From: a virus
Lineage: Duplodnaviria; Heunggongvirae; Uroviricota; Caudoviricetes
DNA length: 19,641 bases
Virus record (IMG/VR): IMGVR_UViG_2671181085_000003
Reading direction: 5' to 3' (one strand)
Every line of letters begins with the position of its first letter. Within the stretch, counting starts at the first letter, position 1. The translations under genes were made by a program, and so were the position numbers. Under the pieces are notes generated by a model. That model was not told the origin of the DNA, did no database searches, and worked only from the letters and a program-made list of their open reading frames with translations. This document shows positions 2,157 to 19,020 of this stretch, piece by piece.

Positions 2157-2485
2157 CAGTTCACCACCTGCTTAAACTCGGCACTGAATTCCACCCGCAG
2201 CATGCGAACCCGTGATGACCACGCAGCACAGGTCACCTTTATCTGCCGGTATGCATAGGGTGGCTTCCACAAAAATGCCTTCCAGCCCCCGTGCTCTGCC
2301 AGAAACGCTTCCAGATGCCGGGCCTCCTCCCGGGTCACGGAAAGCGTCACCCTGTATGTTTTCAGGTCAGCATTCAGCCCTGCCGCCATACGCTGTGAGT
2401 ACCCGTCACCAAAACGCACTTCACGCACCGACGGCTGCGAGTTCACCTCCATATCCGGCTTCACTTTCCAGCGAAAGGTTTTCAT
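2156..2485 (-). CDS. M: Tail tip protein M
   Basis: 109-aa ORF, same length as lambda gpM; start/stop overlaps with H and L typical of translational coupling. Confidence 0.85.
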   Translation of the reverse strand: MKTFRWKVKPDMEVNSQPSVREVRFGDGYSQRMAAGLNADLKTYRVTLSVTREEARHLEAFLAEHGGWKAFLWKPPYAYRQIKVTCAAWSSRVRMLRVEFSAEFKQVVN

Positions 2486-5055
2486 CGCCCGCTCCCTGAT
2501 AACATACCGCCATCACGCAACTGCAGCCGGAGCTCATCCTGCGCCCCCTTGCGGGCCATGTCATACACCGCCTTCATCAGCTGCGGCCCCGCCTGTCCGT
2601 TGATACCGTCGTTCTGAATCACCACGTGATTGTTCTGATTAAAATTAATACCTTCCGCCCGCCGCATCTGCGCCGGACTTCCGGCACCACCCACATAACC
2701 ACCTTCCGCATAGCCGCGCATCAGGCGGTAAAGATTCCCCACACCTATCCGGCTGGTTGCCTCCTTCGTGAAGACAAACTCCCCGCGGTGAACTATCCCC
2801 GCAGGCTCATATTTGCCGCCCGTGCCCGTAAATCCGCCGGTCGCGAAATGAAAGTTCGCCGCCGCAGCCTGAATGGCCGTCCCCGTGGAGGCAGACGCCC
2901 CACCACCGAAAGCACCACCAATGGCGCTGCCGATACGCCCGACAATGCCCACCATGGCCTGTTTAAGCAGGATTTCTGTCATCATGGACAGCACCGAACG
3001 GGTGAATCCCCGCCAGTTCTGTTCGCTGCCGGTCAGCATCGCCGCCATATTCTGTGCAATACCATCAAAGGTCTGCGTGGCCACACTTTTAACCTGCGAA
3101 AAACTGTCCGTCGCACTTTCCGCCCACTCACCCCAGCCGGACTTCAGCCCGGCCAGCCAGTCACCGCGCAGCATGTCTTCATCCGCCCATGTCTGTTTCA
3201 GTGCCCCGGTGACCCGGGCCAGCGCCTGCGGATTATCGCCGTACACGTCACGAAGACGCTGCTCTTCAGACTCCCGCTGTGCCTGACGGTCGGTGAGACC
3301 ACGGGCTTTTGCGCTGATGGCGGCCTGCTTCGCGCTCTGTTGCTCTTCAAACCGTGCAGCCTGCTGTGCAAGTTCATTCAGGCGTTTCTGGTGCTCCACC
3401 TTGTCGCCCAGCTCAGCCAGCTGGCGTTTGTACTCCAGCGTTTCTTTCTCATGAGCCAGCAGGGATTTTTCCTGCCCGGATAACTGCCGTTTCGTGGCAG
3501 CCTCTTTCAGGACCGCATACTGACTTTCCGCTTTCCATAAATCACGGCGCTGCTGGCTGATTTTCTCATTCGCACCGCTGTGCTTCTCCAGCGTCCGGAG
3601 CTCAGTTTCAAGCGCCAGCAGGGCTGCATGCGCCCGGTCTTCCTGACGCTCACCGGCAGACACCTTCACACCGGACGGCTTTTTCAGCGTCGATTCATAA
3701 TCCTTTTTCGCCGACGCCATCAGCGTGTTGTAATCCGCCTGCAGGATTTTCCCGTCTCTCAGGGCCCTGTTCAGTTCTTCCTGACGGGCGGTATATTTCT
3801 CCAGCGGCGACAGCAGGCGTTCATACGCTTTCTGCGCCTCTCCGGTATACTTCAGCTGTGACGCCTCACGCTCAGCCCTGTCCCTTGCCGCCAGTTCACC
3901 GGCTTTTTCCATATCCGACTGCAGCGTTGCCGCCGCCAGCCCCAGACGGGCATTTTCCCGGTCATCCCATGCACCCTGAAGGTTGGCCCGGAAAGAGGAG
4001 GTTTTACCGCGGCGCTGGCTCCGGCTCTGGTACCACTGCCATTTTTTATCCGCTTCATCAAATGCCTTCTGCGCACTGGCGAGCATGTCCGCAGAAGATT
4101 CCGGACGACCGATATCCAGAATGGCATCCCACATCGATTTGAACGCCTTTCCTGTTTTATCCGCCCAGGTTTCCAGCGTCCCCATGTTCTCTTTCAGGCG
4201 GCGGGTCTGGTCATCAAAGCCTTTCGTGGCAATATCGTTCGCCGCCTGTAAGGCACCGGCCTCGTCTCCGGAACGCTGCAGCTGAGCAACATACGCAATC
4301 TGCTCTGCCGTCACGTTACGGAACTGGCGTGCCATCGCAGTCAGCCCCGACGTCGGGTCAGTGGTCAGTTTTCCGAAAGCCTCTGCAACCTTGTCCACCT
4401 CCACACCGGAGGCAGACGCAAAACGCGCCACACTCTGGTTAATGGCATCAAACTGTTCACCACCACGCACACCGGCACTGACCAGGGCTGCCAGTGACTC
4501 TCCCGCCTGGTTAAACGTCAGCCCTGCCGCCTGCCCGGCTCTGGAGAGCGTCAGCATGCGCTCTGCCGTCAGTCCTGACTGATTACCGGAAAGAACCAGG
4601 GTTTTATTAAACGCTGAAAGCGTGGAATCCCCCTGGTACCAGGCATACGCCAGCGCACCTGTCGCGGCGACCAGTGATGTGATCCCGACGGCAGGTAGCG
4701 AGACGGCTCCCGCCAGTCCCCGGAACATCGGGATAAGACCACCGAACGAGTCTTTCACCTGACCGCCCTGTTGCAGCAGGATGAGCCAGGGATTCTGACC
4801 ACCGGCAAGCTGCGTGGCAACGTCGGTGAACTGCATGGGTAGCATACGCATGGCGGCTTTATACTGCCCGACGGACATCCCGGCTTTTTGTGCAGCCAGC
4901 GCCTGGCGGCTCAGCCCCTGCTCAACAGCACTGGCGGTTTTTCTGGCGTCAGTCTCCAGTCCTGAAAAATGACGCCTTACGCGGGTCATCTGCTCATCGA
5001 AACGAACCGCATCCAGACTCAGGTCAATAACAAGATCACCAACCGGCTGGGACAT
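2482..5055 (-). CDS. H: Tail tape measure protein H
   Basis: 857-aa ORF (lambda gpH is about 853 aa); long alpha-helical Ala/Gln/Glu-rich middle region and Gly-rich C-terminal part typical of tape measure proteins; position between T and M. Confidence 0.9.
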   Translation of the reverse strand: MSQPVGDLVIDLSLDAVRFDEQMTRVRRHFSGLETDARKTASAVEQGLSRQALAAQKAGMSVGQYKAAMRMLPMQFTDVATQLAGGQNPWLILLQQGGQVKDSFGGLIPMFRGLAGAVSLPAVGITSLVAATGALAYAWYQGDSTLSAFNKTLVLSGNQSGLTAERMLTLSRAGQAAGLTFNQAGESLAALVSAGVRGGEQFDAINQSVARFASASGVEVDKVAEAFGKLTTDPTSGLTAMARQFRNVTAEQIAYVAQLQRSGDEAGALQAANDIATKGFDDQTRRLKENMGTLETWADKTGKAFKSMWDAILDIGRPESSADMLASAQKAFDEADKKWQWYQSRSQRRGKTSSFRANLQGAWDDRENARLGLAAATLQSDMEKAGELAARDRAEREASQLKYTGEAQKAYERLLSPLEKYTARQEELNRALRDGKILQADYNTLMASAKKDYESTLKKPSGVKVSAGERQEDRAHAALLALETELRTLEKHSGANEKISQQRRDLWKAESQYAVLKEAATKRQLSGQEKSLLAHEKETLEYKRQLAELGDKVEHQKRLNELAQQAARFEEQQSAKQAAISAKARGLTDRQAQRESEEQRLRDVYGDNPQALARVTGALKQTWADEDMLRGDWLAGLKSGWGEWAESATDSFSQVKSVATQTFDGIAQNMAAMLTGSEQNWRGFTRSVLSMMTEILLKQAMVGIVGRIGSAIGGAFGGGASASTGTAIQAAAANFHFATGGFTGTGGKYEPAGIVHRGEFVFTKEATSRIGVGNLYRLMRGYAEGGYVGGAGSPAQMRRAEGINFNQNNHVVIQNDGINGQAGPQLMKAVYDMARKGAQDELRLQLRDGGMLSGSGR

Positions 5056-5898
5056 ATCTCACACCTCCGGAAATCCCCGCTGAAGCCATCATTAATGCGA
5101 CATCATCCTCGCTGACATCCACCACATCCGCAGAAGGTGAAATATCGCCCCCTCCCTCCCCACCGAACCGGACGCCTCCGGCAAGTCCTGCCGCTTTCTG
5201 CATCAGCATGTCTTCCTCATCCGGCCTCTCCGTCTGCGCTTCCTCACGCCGGGGGACGAGCAGACTGAAATCCGAGGGATGCATATCCGGATCGCAAAAA
5301 AACAGGCTGAGTACGGCGTACGTCAGCCCGGAAAAATGCATATCCAGCTGGGTATCGTGAAAATAATGCGTGCGGTAAAAACGTCGCCAGTCGGCATATT
5401 CGGTGGATGTCATCCCGGCAAGCATGGCTCGCCAGTCGGCTCTCCCCATCTCACGCGCCAGTTTCAGGACAAAGTTCAGCTCGCCTTCGAATGCTTTTTT
5501 GATGTTACCGGCTCAGTCGCTTCTGCTTTCCCGGTTTGTTCAGGATCGGCATCGTGCCGGTTATCCAGCATACCTGAAAGATAAAGCACCCGGTTCGTTG
5601 CCTGATTCAGTGCATCAGCAGGCCATCCCAGCATCACTTCACGGCGGATCTGCTGCATCTCTGTCTCCGGAGAGGCCAGAGTGCCTTTGAGGGAATGGGA
5701 ATGCCATAGCGACATCGCCACAAGCAGGGATGCCGTTTCCAGATATCGCTGGTTAATGTGCACGGCATCATGCTCCGTTGTCTCCTGTTGTGCTGCGTCT
5801 GAAACAAACTTCATATAATCAAACCGCTGCAGCGCAGACAGCTCCGACAGCGTGACGGACACCCCGTTATATTCAAATTGTTCTGTTTTCAGGAACAT
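5036..5898 (-). CDS. T: Tail assembly chaperone G-T fusion, made by programmed -1 ribosomal frameshift
   Basis: The T frame (5036..5512 open) is -1 relative to G and overlaps the G 3' end; slippery heptamer A_AAA_AAG at 5494-5500 (minus strand) sits in the correct register at G codons 134-135. Predicted fusion is about 287 aa. Confidence 0.7.
5476..5898 (-). CDS. G: Tail assembly chaperone G
   Basis: Start at internal ATG (MFLKTEQFEYNGVSVTLSELSALQ...), giving 140 aa, the lambda gpG length; the ORF-track start upstream at 6012 is rejected. Confidence 0.8.
   Translation of the reverse strand: MFLKTEQFEYNGVSVTLSELSALQRFDYMKFVSDAAQQETTEHDAVHINQRYLETASLLVAMSLWHSHSLKGTLASPETEMQQIRREVMLGWPADALNQATNRVLYLSGMLDNRHDADPEQTGKAEATEPVTSKKHSKAS
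5494..5500 (-). other. -1 programmed frameshift slippery heptamer A_AAA_AAG
   Basis: Zero-frame reading TC-A AAA AAG (Ser-Lys-Lys) in G; the -1 frame reads AAA AAA and continues open into T. Confidence 0.65.
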
Positions 5899-15635: not shown

Positions 15636-15735
15636 CATGTCCGGTTCACATGCCCATTTTTTGCGCATGTCCGGTTCACAGAAGACCTGTTTTTATATTT
15701 TTCATATAGTTAACTTGCAGAGAAACCGGACATGG
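15636..15735. promoter_or_regulatory. cosB-like terminase binding region with three R elements
   Basis: CATGTCCGGTTCACA at 15636-15650 and 15666-15680 (direct, 30 bp apart) plus an inverted copy AACCGGACATGG at about 15722-15735, separated by an AT-rich stretch (15681-15720). This mirrors the lambda R1/R2-bend-R3 layout but with different repeat sequence. Confidence 0.65.
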
Positions 15736-15771: not shown

Positions 15772-15783
15772 AGGTCGCCGCCC
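15772..15783 (-). other. cosN cohesive-end site
   Basis: Minus-strand sequence GGGCGGCGACCT followed by CGCGGGTTTTC.CTATTTATGAAAATTTTCC, matching the lambda left end as I recall it, lying about 190 bp upstream of Nu1. Confidence 0.85.
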
Positions 15784-16006
15784 CGTAACGGTCTGGATCA
15801 CCGGAAAGGACCCGCCAACGACTTTCGCGTGCAGGCATTAAAAATTTTGCAGTTCCATGCCTAGTTGAAACCTCGATTTCTATAACATCCAATTTTGTAA
15901 ATTTAGATATAGCTCAACTTTTCCCAATGTTTTCAATTGTATAAAAACAATTGGCGTTACGCTATAACACTATACTTAGAATAAGTAAAGATTTTAAGGA
16001 GTTTTA

Positions 16007-17074
16007 ATGAGTCAACATCAATATTATCCACAGCTGAAATGGAAGCCTGCTGAATATGAATCTCTGATGCTTTTAGATCAAACTACGCTCTCTGGTTTTA
16101 CTCCGATCATTACCATTCCAGACATAGACTGGGATTATGAAAACGAATGCTACAAGAAGAGTTTGAGTTCTTACTTATCTGACTTCGGTATTAACCTTGC
16201 GGCATCCTGGAAAGCCAATCGTCCTGTTTTGCTGGATGTTAAATATTTAGATAAACATGGTTCGAGCCGCCATCATCCTCTAGATATGTGTATCCAAGAT
16301 GCTAGAGTAAATGGTAAGGAAATTATCCCTGTTGTTTCTCCCACATATTCAACAAACTATATACATGCTGTTCAACGCAACTTAATCAATGGGCTCGCTA
16401 TATCTATCACCCCCCAGACATGGCACCAATTCACAAGTCTGGTTAACCACTTAAATATTCATCCTAGTTTAATTGATGTAATCATTGATTTTGGAGATAT
16501 TCAAAACGCAACTGATAGTTTAAAACAACAAGCATTAAGCATGGTCAACACATTATCAGGCCAAGCTCCGTGGAGAAACTTGATTTTATCTTCAACCGCA
16601 TACCCGGCATCACAGGCAGGGATACCGCAACATCAAGTTCATCATATTCCGCGCCATGAATACGATCTTTGGATGTACGTAGTACAGAATTTTAGCAATG
16701 GAAGAACGCCAAGTTTTAGTGATTATCCCACCGCTAGCTCTACCATTACGAGCGTAGACCCACGCTTCATGTCTCAGTATGTCTCAGTGAGATATTCGAA
16801 CGATACCTCATGGATCTTTGTAAAAGGTACCGCAGTTAAAGGAAATGGATGGGGCCAAACTAAAAACTTATGTACTACCCTTGTTAGTTCGCCAGAGTAT
16901 CAAGTCTTTGGCTCCAAATTTAGTTGGGGGGATGATTACATTTACCAAAGATCATTAGGCGCTAACAAATCTGGCGGCTCTAAAGAATGGCGTAAAGTTG
17001 CACATACGCACCATATTACGTTAGTCGTGAGACAGCTTTATTGGTTGGCGCAGACTCAGCCTGCCAAGCCTTAA
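16007..17074 (+). CDS. Hypothetical protein, 355 aa, no recognisable motif (accessory island gene 1)
   Basis: ATG preceded by AAGGAG with about 5-nt spacing; about 38% GC in a sample versus GC-rich flanks; opposite strand to all phage late genes. Confidence 0.7.
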   Translation: MSQHQYYPQLKWKPAEYESLMLLDQTTLSGFTPIITIPDIDWDYENECYKKSLSSYLSDFGINLAASWKANRPVLLDVKYLDKHGSSRHHPLDMCIQDARVNGKEIIPVVSPTYSTNYIHAVQRNLINGLAISITPQTWHQFTSLVNHLNIHPSLIDVIIDFGDIQNATDSLKQQALSMVNTLSGQAPWRNLILSSTAYPASQAGIPQHQVHHIPRHEYDLWMYVVQNFSNGRTPSFSDYPTASSTITSVDPRFMSQYVSVRYSNDTSWIFVKGTAVKGNGWGQTKNLCTTLVSSPEYQVFGSKFSWGDDYIYQRSLGANKSGGSKEWRKVAHTHHITLVVRQLYWLAQTQPAKP

Positions 17075-17636
17075 CTTTCCAGCCTACGCGTTTCTTTAAG
17101 GCTGTTCTGACTTCAAGCCTGAGATTCGCCATTGGAATATTTTCCGCAATAATATTCCATAACTCAAATCGGGGCTTGCTTTTGATTCCTTTGGAATAGC
17201 CCCATCGTTCAAGTACGTCGATACATTCATCTTTCCAAAGCAATTGAGCGAGCATCAATGTGTCATGGTTTCGATTAAGCTTTTCTCCACGCATGTGCTT
17301 TATAAGAATGGCGCCTTTTGACCCAACAGAAACCGTTTTAACGCCCCACCAACCTGGGATTAACTTTAATGCTCCCTCAAGATGTTTCTCAGCTACGACA
17401 AGAGTAACCTTGTCCATTACAGAAGAATAATGCTTGATTTGAAGAGGCAAACGCTCCAAAGAGTCATATTCACTTTTGAGCTCGTACCCGTGTATAACAC
17501 CATTTATTACAGCAATGTCTGCTCTACTGGCGCCAAGGGATATGGAAAATTCATCGACCACAAGGCAGTCTGGATCTAAATGCGATTCTTTCAAAAGCTT
17601 ATGATGCACCGCGAACCTAACATCTTGATCTTTCAT
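17016..17636 (-). CDS. Hypothetical protein, 206 aa, predicted PD-(D/E)xK-fold nuclease-like (accessory island gene 2)
   Basis: ATG preceded by AAGGAG with 5-nt spacing; N-terminal region reads CLVVDEFSISLGASRADIAVINGVIHGYELKSE, a hydrophobic-D ... E-x-K arrangement typical of PD-(D/E)xK nucleases. AT-rich. Confidence 0.7.
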   Translation of the reverse strand: MKDQDVRFAVHHKLLKESHLDPDCLVVDEFSISLGASRADIAVINGVIHGYELKSEYDSLERLPLQIKHYSSVMDKVTLVVAEKHLEGALKLIPGWWGVKTVSVGSKGAILIKHMRGEKLNRNHDTLMLAQLLWKDECIDVLERWGYSKGIKSKPRFELWNIIAENIPMANLRLEVRTALKKRVGWKVKAWQAESAPTNKAVSRLT

Positions 17637-17664
17637 GACTTCTCCTTACTCCCTCCGTTATTGA

Positions 17665-17693
17665 ATTATAGCGCACTGCATTTTACTGCATTT
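17665..17693 (-). promoter_or_regulatory. Candidate sigma70 promoter for island gene 2, overlapped by a tandem direct repeat
   Basis: Perfect TATAAT -10 on the minus strand (plus coordinates 17665-17670) about 28 nt upstream of the ATG; -35 is weak; a 10-bp element ACTGCATTT(T) occurs twice in tandem at 17675-17693. Confidence 0.4.
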
Positions 17694-17986
17694 GAGAGAT
17701 TTGACCACTTCAATCACAAAATGCTTATCTGCAGCAACAAGATTCATAGCCATACGACTATGGTGATTACCTTTTGTCTGGAAAACTGACCATTCCACGA
17801 AGATCAGATAGGTCTATAGAATCTTGGTTTGTCATAGCGTTCGCCTTACTTTGAGATGAACCTTTGCTGCATAGGAGATCAGCCCGTCAAGGCTCACCAG
17901 CACTAACTGACTACTCAAAGGCTCATTCCAAAGGGTTTGGTTCGACGTGGTTGAGTGCGCTGCGATGCGCGGTGAAATACCTGTAC

Positions 17987-18014
17987 AAAAATGCCCCGCA
18001 TCTGCGAGGCATTT
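17987..18014 (-). terminator. Hairpin terminator downstream of Rz/Rz1, possibly bidirectional
   Basis: Long inverted repeat AAAATGCC-C-CGCA-TC-TGCG-A-GGCATTTT, A-rich on one side and T-rich on the other, about 40 bp after the Rz stop. Confidence 0.55.
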
Positions 18015-18052
18015 TCCTGAAAGTCACGTATTAAATTTCAGTGAAATTAAAA

Positions 18053-18490
18053 TTATTTTAAGCACTGCGTCCTGATGTACTCCTGCAGGTAGTTGACCTG
18101 CGCGGTTATCTTGTCGATTCCACTTCGGAGACGGTAATAATTGAGTTCAGCATCTGCTGTAAGTCCTGGGCTTTCTCCATCGCCCATGCTGCTGGCTCCG
18201 GTCGTTGACTTTGCACAGGTGGCGGCGACTTGCAGGCGCTTACGCCCAGCAGAAACATCAGCACGGAGACTTTCGATAGTCGCGTTAGCATCAGCAAGCT
18301 CCTTTGTGTATCTGGCGTCAAGTTCTGCTACATCACGTTGACGCTTCTGCATGTCAGCGATGATGTACCTGGCTTTATCGCGCTGTTCTTTATAGGTAAT
18401 GGCGTTATCACGGTAATGATTAACAGCCCATGACAGGCAGACGATGATGCAAATAACCAGAGCGGAGATAATCGCGGCTACTCTTCTCAC
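18053..18490 (-). CDS. Rz: Spanin inner-membrane subunit Rz (i-spanin)
   Basis: Strong similarity to my recollection of lambda Rz ([46 protein letters not shown]). Probable GTG start at 18490 overlapping the R stop (GTGA); the ORF-track start at 18505 is TTG. Confidence 0.85.
18106..18291 (-). CDS. Rz1: Spanin outer-membrane lipoprotein subunit Rz1 (o-spanin), embedded in Rz in another frame
   Basis: ATG at 18291 preceded by AAGGAG; signal peptide with lipobox ([20 protein letters not shown]) followed by a Pro-rich segment ([13 protein letters not shown]); wholly inside Rz. Confidence 0.75.
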
Positions 18491-19020
18491 TGATCTATCC
18501 CCCAACAGGCTAATGCGCTTTCCTGGTCACGACGAATAACCTGTCCGTAGCAGTTATTTGAACGTGTGCGGCAATCACGCCCACCGTCCTTAATCCACCA
18601 GCGAATCGACTCACAGGCACCTTTACGATCACCGGCATTAAGCCGCTTATAAAACGTCGACGGGAAACACTTACCCGGGCCAATGTTGTAAGGACAGAAT
18701 GACGCAATACCCGCTTTCTGGGGTTCAGTCAGTGGCACTTTGATGTTTTTCGCCACCCATGCCAGCGCCTTATCACGCTCAATGGCGTTAACCCGGTCGC
18801 ATTTCCCCTTCGACAGCTTCATGCCAGGAATAACAGGCTTGCCATCCACCATGATGGCACCTCGGCAGATGGTCCAGATACCCGCACCATCACGGTATGC
18901 CGTGGTGTGGTTGCCTTCCTTTTCATCCAGAAACTGGTCGAGGATTTCAGGCGCAGAAGCACCTGCGGCAATCAGCGCCAGAACGGCAGCCGATAAACCA
19001 TAGCGGAGTTTCCTGCTCAT
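18487..19020 (-). CDS. R: SAR endolysin (T4-lysozyme-like GH24 fold, phage 21 R-type)
   Basis: N-terminal weakly hydrophobic Gly/Ala-rich signal-anchor-release segment ([16 protein letters not shown]); catalytic E-x8-D-x5-T spacing ([16 protein letters not shown]); resembles my recollection of R21. Confidence 0.85.

What the first reader, a model, noticed from the sequence alone, without database searches (positions are those of the whole stretch)
17016..17074. The two island genes converge and overlap by 59 bp at their 3' ends
Gene 1 (plus) stops at 17074 and gene 2 (minus) stops at 17016, so the last ~19 codons of each are encoded on opposite strands of the same DNA and there is no room for a terminator between them. 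Their transcripts must be complementary at the 3' ends, which would allow transcriptional interference or RNA duplex formation and could couple their expression reciprocally. The verified tail codons also leave open a sequencing or annotation artefact.
Basis: seen in the sequence. Interest (0 to 1): 0.5.

Follow-up and report, generated by a model that had tools for sequence, protein, structure and literature searches.

The report
Tail-to-tail overlapping β–cII prophage genes
Two real genes of a P4-type (β / cII) anti-phage module in a lambda-like prophage overlap tail to tail by 59 bp; overlap is the rule for this gene pair across bacteria, but its length here comes from one lost stop codon and looks incidental rather than a purpose-built regulatory device.

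Summary
A 355-aa Beta_protein gene (16007-17074, +) and a 206-aa sce7726/cII gene (17636-17016, -) share 59 bp. It is not an artefact: 127 complete E. coli genomes carry it and RefSeq annotates the same coordinates. The pair is a gop-less relative of the P4 gop-β-cII defence locus, inserted between Rz and cos of a lambdoid prophage.

In 162 homologous loci from many phyla the two genes are always convergent. In 158 they overlap, by 11-167 bp, always in the same relative frame. The conserved ends of the two proteins abut on the DNA. Site-by-site conservation switches from the β frame to the cII frame at one point, so the overlapping tails are unconstrained run-ons.

The closest relatives overlap by only 11 bp. 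Here a single T→C change, silent in β, turned the cII stop TAG into TGG and added 16 codons. That equals the simulated median, and the added residues are predicted to be disordered.

No terminator lies in the junction, so complementary 3' mRNA ends follow logically. Reciprocal regulation remains untested, and lineages with a spacer (P4, Photobacterium, Xenorhabdus) show that coding overlap is dispensable.

The parts
16007..17074 (+). β gene (Beta_protein family, 355 aa). Predicted TIM-barrel-like fold with a long C-terminal helix, residues 325-350.
   Evidence: ORF. Pfam PF14350 E=7.8e-56. PADLOC PD-Lambda-2_C 4.3e-32 and 'beta' 2.7e-10. 22% identical to P4 β. AF2 pLDDT 91. Weak Foldseek hits to TrpA/TIM barrels.
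17016..17636 (-). cII-like gene (sce7726 family, 206 aa). Predicted PD-(D/E)xK-type nuclease fold with the motif D40 ... E52-x-K54.
   Evidence: ORF. NCBIfam NF033832 E=7.5e-55. PADLOC 'cll' 2.2e-31. 27% identical to P4 cII. Invariant D40, E52 and K54 in alignment A1. AF2 pLDDT 89. Best fold hits are 3dnx and tRNA-splicing endonucleases.
17016..17074 (.). The 59-bp tail-to-tail overlap. Codon position 1 lies opposite 1, position 2 opposite 3, and position 3 opposite 2 ('phase 1').
   Evidence: The phase was worked out from the coordinates. The same phase holds in all 158 overlapping homologous pairs.
17064..17066 (-). cII codon 191, TGG (Trp), where the closest relatives have the stop TAG. The base at 17065 is C here and T in the relatives. 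It is the third position of β Ala353 (GCC versus GCT), so the change is silent in β.
   Evidence: Junction comparison of the window with Edwardsiella, Klebsiella, Pantoea and Pectobacterium loci. cII is 190 aa and ends WK(V/I/T)(R/K)(V/A)* in relatives.
17016..17066 (-). Stop-loss extension of cII: 16 added codons (W191-T206) plus the new stop TAA at 17016-17018. It is encoded opposite the conserved C-terminal helix of β.
   Evidence: Residues 190-206 have pLDDT < 50. The extension length equals the simulated median of 16 codons, 5-95% range 12-48.
17064..17074 (.). Equivalent of the 11-bp overlap seen in the closest relatives. This is the inferred state before the stop loss.
   Evidence: L007-L010 and L115-L124 all overlap by 11 bp.
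17009..17014 (+). β His335-His336, the nearly invariant 'NHH' motif. It is used as the anchor for the β end of the junction.
   Evidence: H335 and H336 are invariant in A2. His is present in 82 of 83 loci at this column.
17079..17081 (-). cII Trp186, the last conserved residue of the LKxRxxW motif. It is used as the anchor for the cII end of the junction. It lies 70 nt from the β His336 codon here, against 31 nt in 69 of 83 loci.
17637..17742 (-). cII upstream region, conserved across genera. It holds a Shine-Dalgarno sequence, TATAAT at 17670-17665, and TGGTCA-16 nt-TAAAAT at 17707-17680. It is the probable cII promoter and travels with the module.
   Evidence: blastn limits of homology, alignment A3, promoter scan, sequence. 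Promoter activity is inferred, not shown.
15883..16006 (+). β upstream region, with a Shine-Dalgarno AAGGAG and a partly conserved AT-rich stretch (TTAGATxTAGCTCA ... GTATAAAA). It is the probable β promoter.
   Evidence: Alignment A4, homology limits, sequence. Promoter activity is inferred.
17986..18016 (-). Strong hairpin flanked by an A-run and a T-run, between Rz and the module. It looks like a bidirectional intrinsic terminator. It is the first strong structure a β read-through transcript would meet.
   Evidence: strand folding gives -20.2 kcal/mol, z = -5.75, with 0 of 200 shuffles as stable. Sequence. The simple terminator scan did not report it.
15772..15783 (-). cosN, an exact match to the lambda cohesive-end sequence GGGCGGCGACCT. 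It places the module at the right end of the phage genome, between Rz and cos.
   Evidence: Neighbouring genes.

Best explanation
Identity and context. The two genes are a stand-alone β–cII module. β is a TIM-barrel-like Beta_protein and cII is a PD-(D/E)xK-like sce7726 protein. They are distant relatives of the β and cII genes of the P4 gop-β-cII anti-phage locus. The module sits as a low-GC moron between Rz and cos of a lambdoid prophage.

Family architecture. In this family the two genes face each other with no intergenic spacer. The last constrained codon of β and the last constrained codon of cII are adjacent on the DNA. Each reading frame therefore runs on into the other gene until it meets an antisense stop. 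These run-on tails are what is seen as 'overlap'. They are not under dual coding constraint.

This lineage. In the Enterobacterales lineage of the window, a 39-nt insertion at the junction had reduced the overlap to 11 bp. In the E. coli / E. albertii element a single T→C transition at 17065 is synonymous in β (Ala353). It converted the cII stop TAG to TGG and extended cII by 16 disordered residues to the next stop at 17016. That produced the 59-bp overlap.

Shown: gene identity, family-wide convergent overlap in one phase, partition of constraint, the stop-loss difference, and the absence of a junction terminator.

Inferred: the direction of the mutation (by outgroup parsimony), neutrality of the tail, two convergent promoters, and the consequence that each mRNA is antisense to the partner's 3' end or more.
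For: Gene identity.

Context: low GC of 0.38-0.44 against about 0.55; Rz, lysozyme and holin on one side, small and large terminase on the other; cosN exact.

Family geometry: 83 of 87 genome, phage and window loci and 79 of 80 viral loci have a convergent β partner. 80 and 78 of these overlap, by 11-167 bp, and every overlap length is 2 mod 3. The loci span 36 clusters at 60% cII identity and many phyla.

Anchors: the β His to cII Trp distance is 31 nt in 69 of 83 loci and 70 nt in the window clade.

Partition of constraint: in 62 distinct junctions, information content follows β codon periodicity up to position +27 and cII periodicity from +29.

Tail lengths: cII has 0-28 residues after the Trp and β has 2-47 after QL. 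Observed lengths sit at mean percentile 0.68 and 0.57 of synonymous-reshuffle simulations.

Stop loss: GCTAGG in four genera against GCCAAG in the window. Ten further viral relatives have 11 bp. More distant Vibrionales relatives also have short cII tails. A second, independent extension occurs in Cronobacter P0002.

Extension: 16 codons, equal to the simulated median, with pLDDT < 50 for residues 190-206.

The published random 3'-extension model for convergent overlaps (Kingsford 2007) is summarised in PMC3887535.
Against: The polarity of the TAG/TGG difference rests on parsimony with few outgroups. A stop gain in the common ancestor of the 11-bp relatives is not formally excluded.

Neutrality of the tail is inferred from disorder, variability and simulations, not from a functional test. 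All 29 near-identical E. coli-type copies examined keep the extension, but they are too similar to be informative: there is one variable site in the overlap.

The near-universal absence of any spacer or terminator across phyla is not explained by neutral run-on alone. It could reflect selection.

The loci were selected by similarity to the query alignment (best 80 of 385 and of 120 hits), so more distant family members are under-sampled. Loci are phylogenetically related, so counts are not independent events.
Confidence: 0.75

Rival explanations
1. The terminator-less convergent junction is selected. Transcripts from the two facing promoters collide or pair at their 3' ends (transcriptional interference, RNase III cleavage of the duplex). 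This sets the β:cII ratio reciprocally, much as 3'-overlapping convergent transcripts do in mscL-arfA or in type I toxin-antitoxin pairs. The 59-bp version would simply lengthen the obligatory duplex.
For: No terminator-like hairpin in the junction. The first strong hairpin on the β side is about 0.9 kb downstream.

Both genes have their own upstream regions conserved across genera.

The zero-spacer convergent layout is kept in 158 of 162 pairs across phyla.

There is precedent for regulation through a convergent 3' overlap in mscL-arfA (PMC10070815).

β has been called an antitoxin-like partner in P4 and in PD-λ-2 (PMC9122126; PMC9519451). A set ratio could therefore matter.
Against: No expression data are available.

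Coding overlap is dispensable in P4 (27-bp spacer with a 13-bp-stem terminator), Photobacterium (+14) and Xenorhabdus (+39).

Overlap length varies from 11 to 167 bp even within close clades (41, 35 and 44 bp in the Rac-type clade). Lengths match neutral expectation.

No conserved RNA structure or Rfam family is present.

A conserved junction is also expected from simple inheritance, because any spacer must be inserted at one precise point.
Confidence: 0.2
2. True dual coding. Both overlapping C-terminal tails are functional peptide segments, and the shared 59 bp is under selection in both frames.
For: The β tail in the overlap is part of a confidently modelled helix, 325-350. Q343 and L344 are nearly invariant. 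The frame relation is invariant across the family.
Against: Conservation follows only one frame at a time and switches at the junction.

The cII tail beyond residue 190 is absent in the closest relatives and predicted to be disordered.

cII tails range from 0 to 28 residues, and their sequence patterns (for example GG/DD opposite β His-His) mirror the β codons.

In this phase each gene's synonymous third positions face the other gene's second positions. Dual constraint would therefore show as loss of third-position freedom, which is not seen.
Confidence: 0.04
3. Sequencing, assembly or annotation artefact. A frameshift or missed stop makes one ORF look too long.
For: None, beyond the general rarity of long convergent overlaps.
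Against: The identical junction occurs in 127 complete E. coli genomes, in E. albertii (L011) and in 30 viral contigs. PGAP annotates the same coordinates. Both proteins match their family profiles end to end.
Confidence: 0.01

Closest known systems
P4 satellite gop-β-cII locus (DefenseFinder/PADLOC 'gop_beta_cll'; Ghisotti 1990; Rousset 2022, PMC9122126)
   Same: It has a β gene of the same Pfam family and the same length (355 aa). It has a cII gene of the sce7726 family. The two are convergent, and the locus sits in a variable hotspot of a mobile element next to cos.
   Different: There is no gop here. Identity is only 22% for β and 27% for cII. P4 cII is 264 aa, with a C-terminal extension. 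P4 has a 27-bp spacer holding a strong terminator instead of an overlap. The host element is a lambdoid prophage, not a P4-like satellite. Defence activity of the two-gene form has not been tested.
PD-λ-2 (Vassallo 2022, PMC9519451): HigB-like A, Xre-peptidase B, β-like C
   Same: β here scores best against the PADLOC PD-Lambda-2_C models (4.3e-32). In 13 of the fetched loci, full A-B-C operons are followed by a convergent, overlapping cII gene with the same junction.
   Different: No A or B gene is present in the window. PD-λ-2 is published as a three-gene system without cII.
Convergent (tail-to-tail) overlapping genes produced by 3' extension to the next stop (Kingsford 2007 model, as summarised in PMC3887535; 'phase 1' preference, bioRxiv 10.1101/2025.11.07.687268)
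   Same: The origin is loss of a stop and run-on into the neighbour. The phase (1-1, 2-3, 3-2) is the one most common for natural convergent overlaps longer than 4 nt. The length is as expected by chance.
   Different: Here the overlap is inherited by a whole gene-pair family across phyla rather than being a sporadic event at one locus.
mscL-arfA convergent pair in E. coli (PMC10070815), and 3'-overlapping type I toxin-antitoxin transcripts such as txpA/RatA and bsrG/SR4 (own knowledge)
   Same: The layout is tail to tail, with complementary 3' transcript ends that can regulate the partner.
   Different: In those cases regulation has been shown experimentally. Here nothing has been measured, and both partners are protein-coding over the whole shared stretch.
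Lambda-type morons at the Rz-cos end (for example bor; own knowledge)
   Same: It is an accessory, low-GC insert between the lysis cassette and cos. One gene (β) lies antisense to late transcription, and terminator-like structures lie at the insert's edge.
   Different: The cargo is unrelated to bor. It is a two-gene convergent module rather than a single gene with its own promoter and terminator.

Membership tests
Pfam PF14350 Beta_protein | Match to the family HMM above the gathering score (27 bits) over the full profile | tested here: met
   190.4 bits, E=7.8e-56, profile 1-342/342, residues 6-342.
NCBIfam NF033832 sce7726 family | Match to the family HMM above the curated cut-off (70 bits) | tested here: met
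   185.7 bits, E=7.5e-55, profile 1-182/184. RefSeq gives the protein the same name.
gop-β-cII defence system (P4 type) | β homologue present | tested here: met
   PADLOC 'beta' 2.7e-10. BLASTP against P4 β: 22% identity, E=2e-07.
gop-β-cII defence system (P4 type) | cII homologue present, convergent with β | tested here: met
   PADLOC 'cll' 2.2e-31. 27% identity to P4 cII. The arrangement is convergent as in P4.
gop-β-cII defence system (P4 type) | gop gene directly upstream of β | tested here: not met
   tblastn of P4 gop against the whole window gives a best E of 0.68. There is no ORF adjacent to the β start. No gop homologue lies next to any of 82 other β-cII pairs.
gop-β-cII defence system (P4 type) | Anti-phage activity (λ and P1 in Rousset 2022) | not testable with these tools
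   This needs plaque assays with the cloned two-gene module.
PD-λ-2 | HigB-like A and Xre-peptidase B genes upstream of the β-like C gene | tested here: not met
   tblastn of PD-λ-2 A and B representatives (validated by PADLOC) against the window gives a best E of 0.47 and 0.84.
PD-(D/E)xK nuclease fold (for cII) | Restriction-endonuclease-like core with a D ... (D/E)xK motif | tested here: inconclusive
   Invariant D40, E52 and K54. In the confident AF2 model the best PDB hit is 3dnx (E=2.9e-4, TMq 0.42), followed by tRNA-splicing endonucleases at E of about 0.06-0.1. This is suggestive. Catalysis has not been tested.
Convergent overlap by stop-loss 3' extension | Close relatives carry an in-frame stop at the point where the query reads on, and the extension ends at the next in-frame stop | tested here: met
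   TAG in L007-L010 and L115-L124 against TGG at 17064-17066 here. The next stop is at 17016-17018.
Antisense-regulated convergent gene pair | Overlapping 3' transcript ends shown by RNA mapping, and expression of one partner changed by transcription of the other | not testable with these tools
   Only the absence of a junction terminator could be checked.

The most novel reading that the evidence does not exclude
The zero-spacer, terminator-less convergent junction is the regulatory core of β–cII modules. In uninfected cells, head-on transcription and 3' RNA pairing hold the predicted cII nuclease and its β partner at a fixed ratio. Termination of the untranslated read-through may depend on Rho. 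A phage that perturbs host transcription, termination (anti-Rho or antitermination factors) or RNase III would tip that ratio and trigger the system. The gene overlap would then be the visible trace of a transcription-sensing switch shared by gop-β-cII, PD-λ-2-like and stand-alone β–cII loci.
Probability: 0.12. Interest if true: 0.7.

Novelty: new member of a known kind. Interest (0 to 1): 0.3.

Why it matters
For this locus the result is mainly a clarification. The overlap is real, but its 59-bp length is a by-product of one stop-loss mutation, so it should not be read as a designed regulatory element.

The wider observation may be useful to people working on phage defence in three ways:
- β (Beta_protein) and cII (sce7726) form a conserved core pair. 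It is found alone, with gop, or behind PD-λ-2 A/B genes.
- The pair is almost always convergent, with no spacer or terminator.
- cII is easily missed or mis-called for this reason, as in Gordonia phage DumpsterDude and possibly in the three-gene description of PD-λ-2.

Constructs that clone 'β' or 'PD-λ-2C' up to its stop codon will cut the partner gene. Any study of these systems needs to consider antisense transcription between the two genes.

Tried and rejected
- I looked for a hidden terminator or conserved RNA structure in the junction with the consensus scan, RNA folding of both strands and Rfam at E<=1. Nothing was found.
- I tried to read Ghisotti 1990 for P4 transcript maps. The paper is not held.
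- I sampled P4-type long-cII loci in viral contigs. Only 3 near-identical copies were found, so they give no information on how common the 'spacer plus terminator' state is.
- I used polymorphism among 29 near-identical E. coli-type copies to test selection on the tail. There is only one variable site in the overlap, so this was uninformative.
- I followed HigB / ImmA-IrrE pairs on plasmids to see whether PD-λ-2 always carries β-cII. Many such pairs lack β altogether, so I dropped this line.
- I considered that the 39-nt junction insert of the window clade is a decayed tandem duplication of the formerly shared segment. By eye the similarity (CAGCCT...TTAA) is too weak to claim.
- The terminator-like site at 15742-15726 overlaps a cosB-type repeat. 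I do not treat it as a terminator for cII.
- A Wilcoxon comparison of observed tails with simulated means is biased by the skew of the simulated distribution. I rely on the percentile measure instead.

Full report
**1. The observation**

The window holds an ORF on the + strand at 16007-17074 (355 aa) and one on the - strand at 17636-17016 (206 aa). They share 17016-17074, which is 59 bp. The β stop TAA is at 17072-17074 and the cII stop TAA is at 17016-17018.

Both are real genes:
- The first matches Pfam PF14350 Beta_protein over the whole profile, E=7.8e-56.
- The second matches NCBIfam NF033832 'sce7726 family', E=7.5e-55.

The same 1.9 kb is present at >=99% identity in 127 of 5426 complete E. 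coli genomes. RefSeq annotates the same two CDS with the same 59-bp overlap in independent assemblies.

**2. What the genes are and where they sit**

PADLOC models named 'beta' and 'cll' hit the two proteins, and β scores best against PD-Lambda-2_C. These models derive from the P4 satellite locus gop-β-cII. That locus protects against λ and P1 (Rousset 2022, PMC9122126) and is triggered by a phage accessory gene (bioRxiv 10.1101/2023.04.06.535777). PD-λ-2 has a third component 'related to a P4 phage antitoxin' (PMC9519451).

The window proteins are distant members of these families: 22% identical to P4 β and 27% to P4 cII. Neither gop nor the PD-λ-2 A/B genes are present in the window.

Structure predictions are confident:
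- β has pLDDT 91 and a TIM-barrel-like fold ending in a long helix at 325-350.
- cII has pLDDT 89 and a restriction-endonuclease-like core. Its best PDB hits are 3dnx and tRNA-splicing endonucleases, and it has invariant D40, E52 and K54.

The module is a low-GC insert, 0.38-0.44 against about 0.55. It lies between the lysis genes (holin, lysozyme, Rz) and cos plus the terminase genes of a lambdoid prophage. An exact lambda cosN sequence is at 15772-15783.

**3. Homologous loci**

P4 itself has the same convergent β-cII layout. However, it has a 27-bp spacer that holds a strong terminator.

I fetched 80 loci from one-genome-per-species contigs, spanning Proteobacteria, Firmicutes, Myxococcota, Acidobacteriota, CPR and others. 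I fetched 80 more from viral contigs, plus phage records. In each locus I located both genes with profiles built from the data.

| Sample | Loci with a convergent β partner next to cII | Of these, overlapping |
|---|---|---|
| Genome contigs, phage records and window | 83 of 87 | 80 |
| Viral contigs | 79 of 80 | 78 |

- Two of the four genome exceptions are contig ends.
- Overlaps range from 11 to 167 bp.
- Every overlap length is 2 mod 3. That is the frame relation with codon position 1 opposite 1, 2 opposite 3 and 3 opposite 2, called 'phase 1' in bioRxiv 10.1101/2025.11.07.687268.
- The genome set contains 36 clusters at 60% cII identity.
- The only pairs with a gap are P4 (+27), a Photobacterium element (+14) and a Xenorhabdus element (+39).

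The overlap is a family trait.

**4. Anatomy of the junction**

I used alignment-based anchors: the second His of the β 'NHH' motif and the Trp of the cII 'LKxRxxW' motif. The two motifs lie exactly 31 nt apart in 69 of 83 loci.

In 62 distinct junctions of this type, per-site information content shows a clean pattern:
- Up to position +27, β codon positions 1 and 2 are conserved and position 3 is free.
- From +29 on, cII positions 1 and 2 are conserved and position 3 is free.

The constraints of the two proteins abut and are not shared. Beyond that point each ORF simply runs on through the partner's constrained end until an antisense stop occurs.

The tails vary accordingly. cII has 0-28 residues after the Trp, and β has 2-47 residues after QL. 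The recurrent patterns in cII tails (GG or DD, then stop or Leu) are the antisense image of the β His-His-(Ile/Leu) codons.

Simulations that reshuffle the partner's synonymous codons reproduce the tail lengths. Observed values sit at mean percentiles 0.68 (cII) and 0.57 (β). This is the random 3'-extension picture proposed for convergent overlaps in general (Kingsford 2007, as summarised in PMC3887535).

**5. Why the overlap is 59 bp here**

The window belongs to an Enterobacterales clade in which the anchor distance is 70 nt rather than 31. This is a 39-nt insertion exactly at the constraint boundary. It now encodes an 11-residue β tail.

In the closest relatives the overlap is only 11 bp. 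These are Edwardsiella, Klebsiella, Pantoea and Pectobacterium loci plus ten viral contigs, with 77-85% cII identity. There cII is 190 aa and ends at a TAG that is the reverse complement of CTA in β 'GCT AGG'.

The window reads 'GCC AAG'. The T→C at 17065 is synonymous for β Ala353 and turns the cII stop into TGG (Trp191). The frame then stays open for 16 codons, to TAA at 17016-17018.

- More distant Vibrionales relatives also have short cII tails, so the extension is most simply the derived state.
- A second, different extension in a Cronobacter protein shows that such stop losses recur.
- With β held constant at the protein level, simulated extensions have a median of 16 codons and a 5-95% range of 12-48. 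The observed 16 is exactly typical.
- AlphaFold gives pLDDT < 50 for residues 190-206, which is the added tail.

**6. Transcription**

No terminator-like hairpin lies in or near the junction. Folding of 16980-17120 is no more stable than shuffles on either strand. Rfam finds nothing. The same scan detects the P4 terminator.

Homology with relatives from other genera extends about 90-105 nt upstream of cII. That stretch includes a conserved TATAAT and a TGGCCA-16-TAAAAT pair. Homology extends less far upstream of β, to an AT-rich conserved block. This suggests two facing promoters that travel with the module. Promoter activity is inferred, not shown.

It follows logically that the two mRNAs are complementary over at least 59 nt. 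With no intrinsic terminator before the strong hairpin at about 17986-18016, they are probably complementary over much more, unless Rho intervenes.

Whether this couples expression is untested. The possibility is real, given the mscL-arfA precedent (PMC10070815). However, lineages with spacers exist, overlap length is free to vary, and tail lengths look neutral. Together these argue that coding overlap as such is not the selected feature.

**7. Verdict**

The finding is a true, annotated overlap in a gop-less β–cII module. It arose by run-on after a stop loss, on top of a family-wide zero-spacer convergent architecture.

- The specific 59 bp is ordinary.
- The family-wide rule is a modestly interesting, apparently unreported regularity. 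It has practical consequences for annotation and cloning of these defence loci.
- It leaves open, at low probability, a role for convergent transcription in their control.

Noticed in passing
L041, L047, L054, L056, L065, L069, L072, L074, L075, L078, L083 and two more (e.g. L074: A 919-1200, B 1213-2406, β 2408-3517, cII 4121-3468 in β-forward orientation): In 13 genome loci the β gene is the third gene of a PD-λ-2-type operon (HigB-like A, Xre-peptidase B; PADLOC E=2.4e-39 and 3.1e-146). A convergent, 3'-overlapping cII/sce7726 gene follows it. The published PD-λ-2 is described as three genes, so a fourth, overlapping component may have been overlooked.
   Followed up: partly
L005 (Gordonia phage DumpsterDude, MT024859) 2956-3633 (+): A full-length sce7726/cII ORF (43.5% identical to the window protein) overlaps gene 33 (β-like) by 89 bp. 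It is not annotated. Instead a 71-aa 'gene 32' is called on the opposite strand inside it. This looks like a mis-annotation caused by the overlap.
   Followed up: partly
window 15636-15650, 15666-15680, 15724-15734: There are three copies of CATGTCCGGTT between cosN and the small-terminase gene: two direct, 30 bp apart, and one inverted. Their position and layout suggest cosB-type terminase-binding sites. The weak 'terminator-like' call at 15742-15726 overlaps the inverted copy.
   Followed up: partly
window 17986-18016 (-): A very stable hairpin (-20.2 kcal/mol, z = -5.75) is flanked by an A-run and a T-run just downstream of Rz. It looks like a bidirectional intrinsic terminator marking the edge of the inserted module. 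The simple terminator scan missed it.
   Followed up: partly
window 17033-17078 (junction) compared with 31-nt-type loci: The window's clade has a 39-nt insertion exactly at the boundary between β and cII constraint (anchor distance 70 against 31 nt). Photobacterium (71) and Xenorhabdus (72) look like +1 and +2 derivatives in which the genes no longer overlap. The origin of the insert is unknown. A decayed duplication of the shared segment was considered but is not convincing.
   Followed up: partly
E. coli genomes: H17 (NZ_CM129638.1), H26 (NZ_CM136150.1), H30 (NZ_CP042350.1): Some copies of the module are damaged. One has an IS1 inserted between or within the two genes. One has β annotated as two pieces. 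One genome holds only 56% of the query in one place and has a second place.
   Followed up: no
L004 (Escherichia phage Rac-SA53, KU052037) 4001-5636: A 54%-identical β–cII module (41-bp overlap) sits in the early region of a Rac-type phage, next to an IS1 and a hok/mok locus. As in the window, cII points the same way as the surrounding phage genes and β points against them.
   Followed up: no
window 18106-18321 (-) inside 18053-18505 (-): A 71-aa ORF with a lipoprotein-like signal (…LLGVSAC…) is embedded out of frame in the Rz gene. This is the usual Rz1-in-Rz arrangement of lambdoid lysis cassettes.
   Followed up: no
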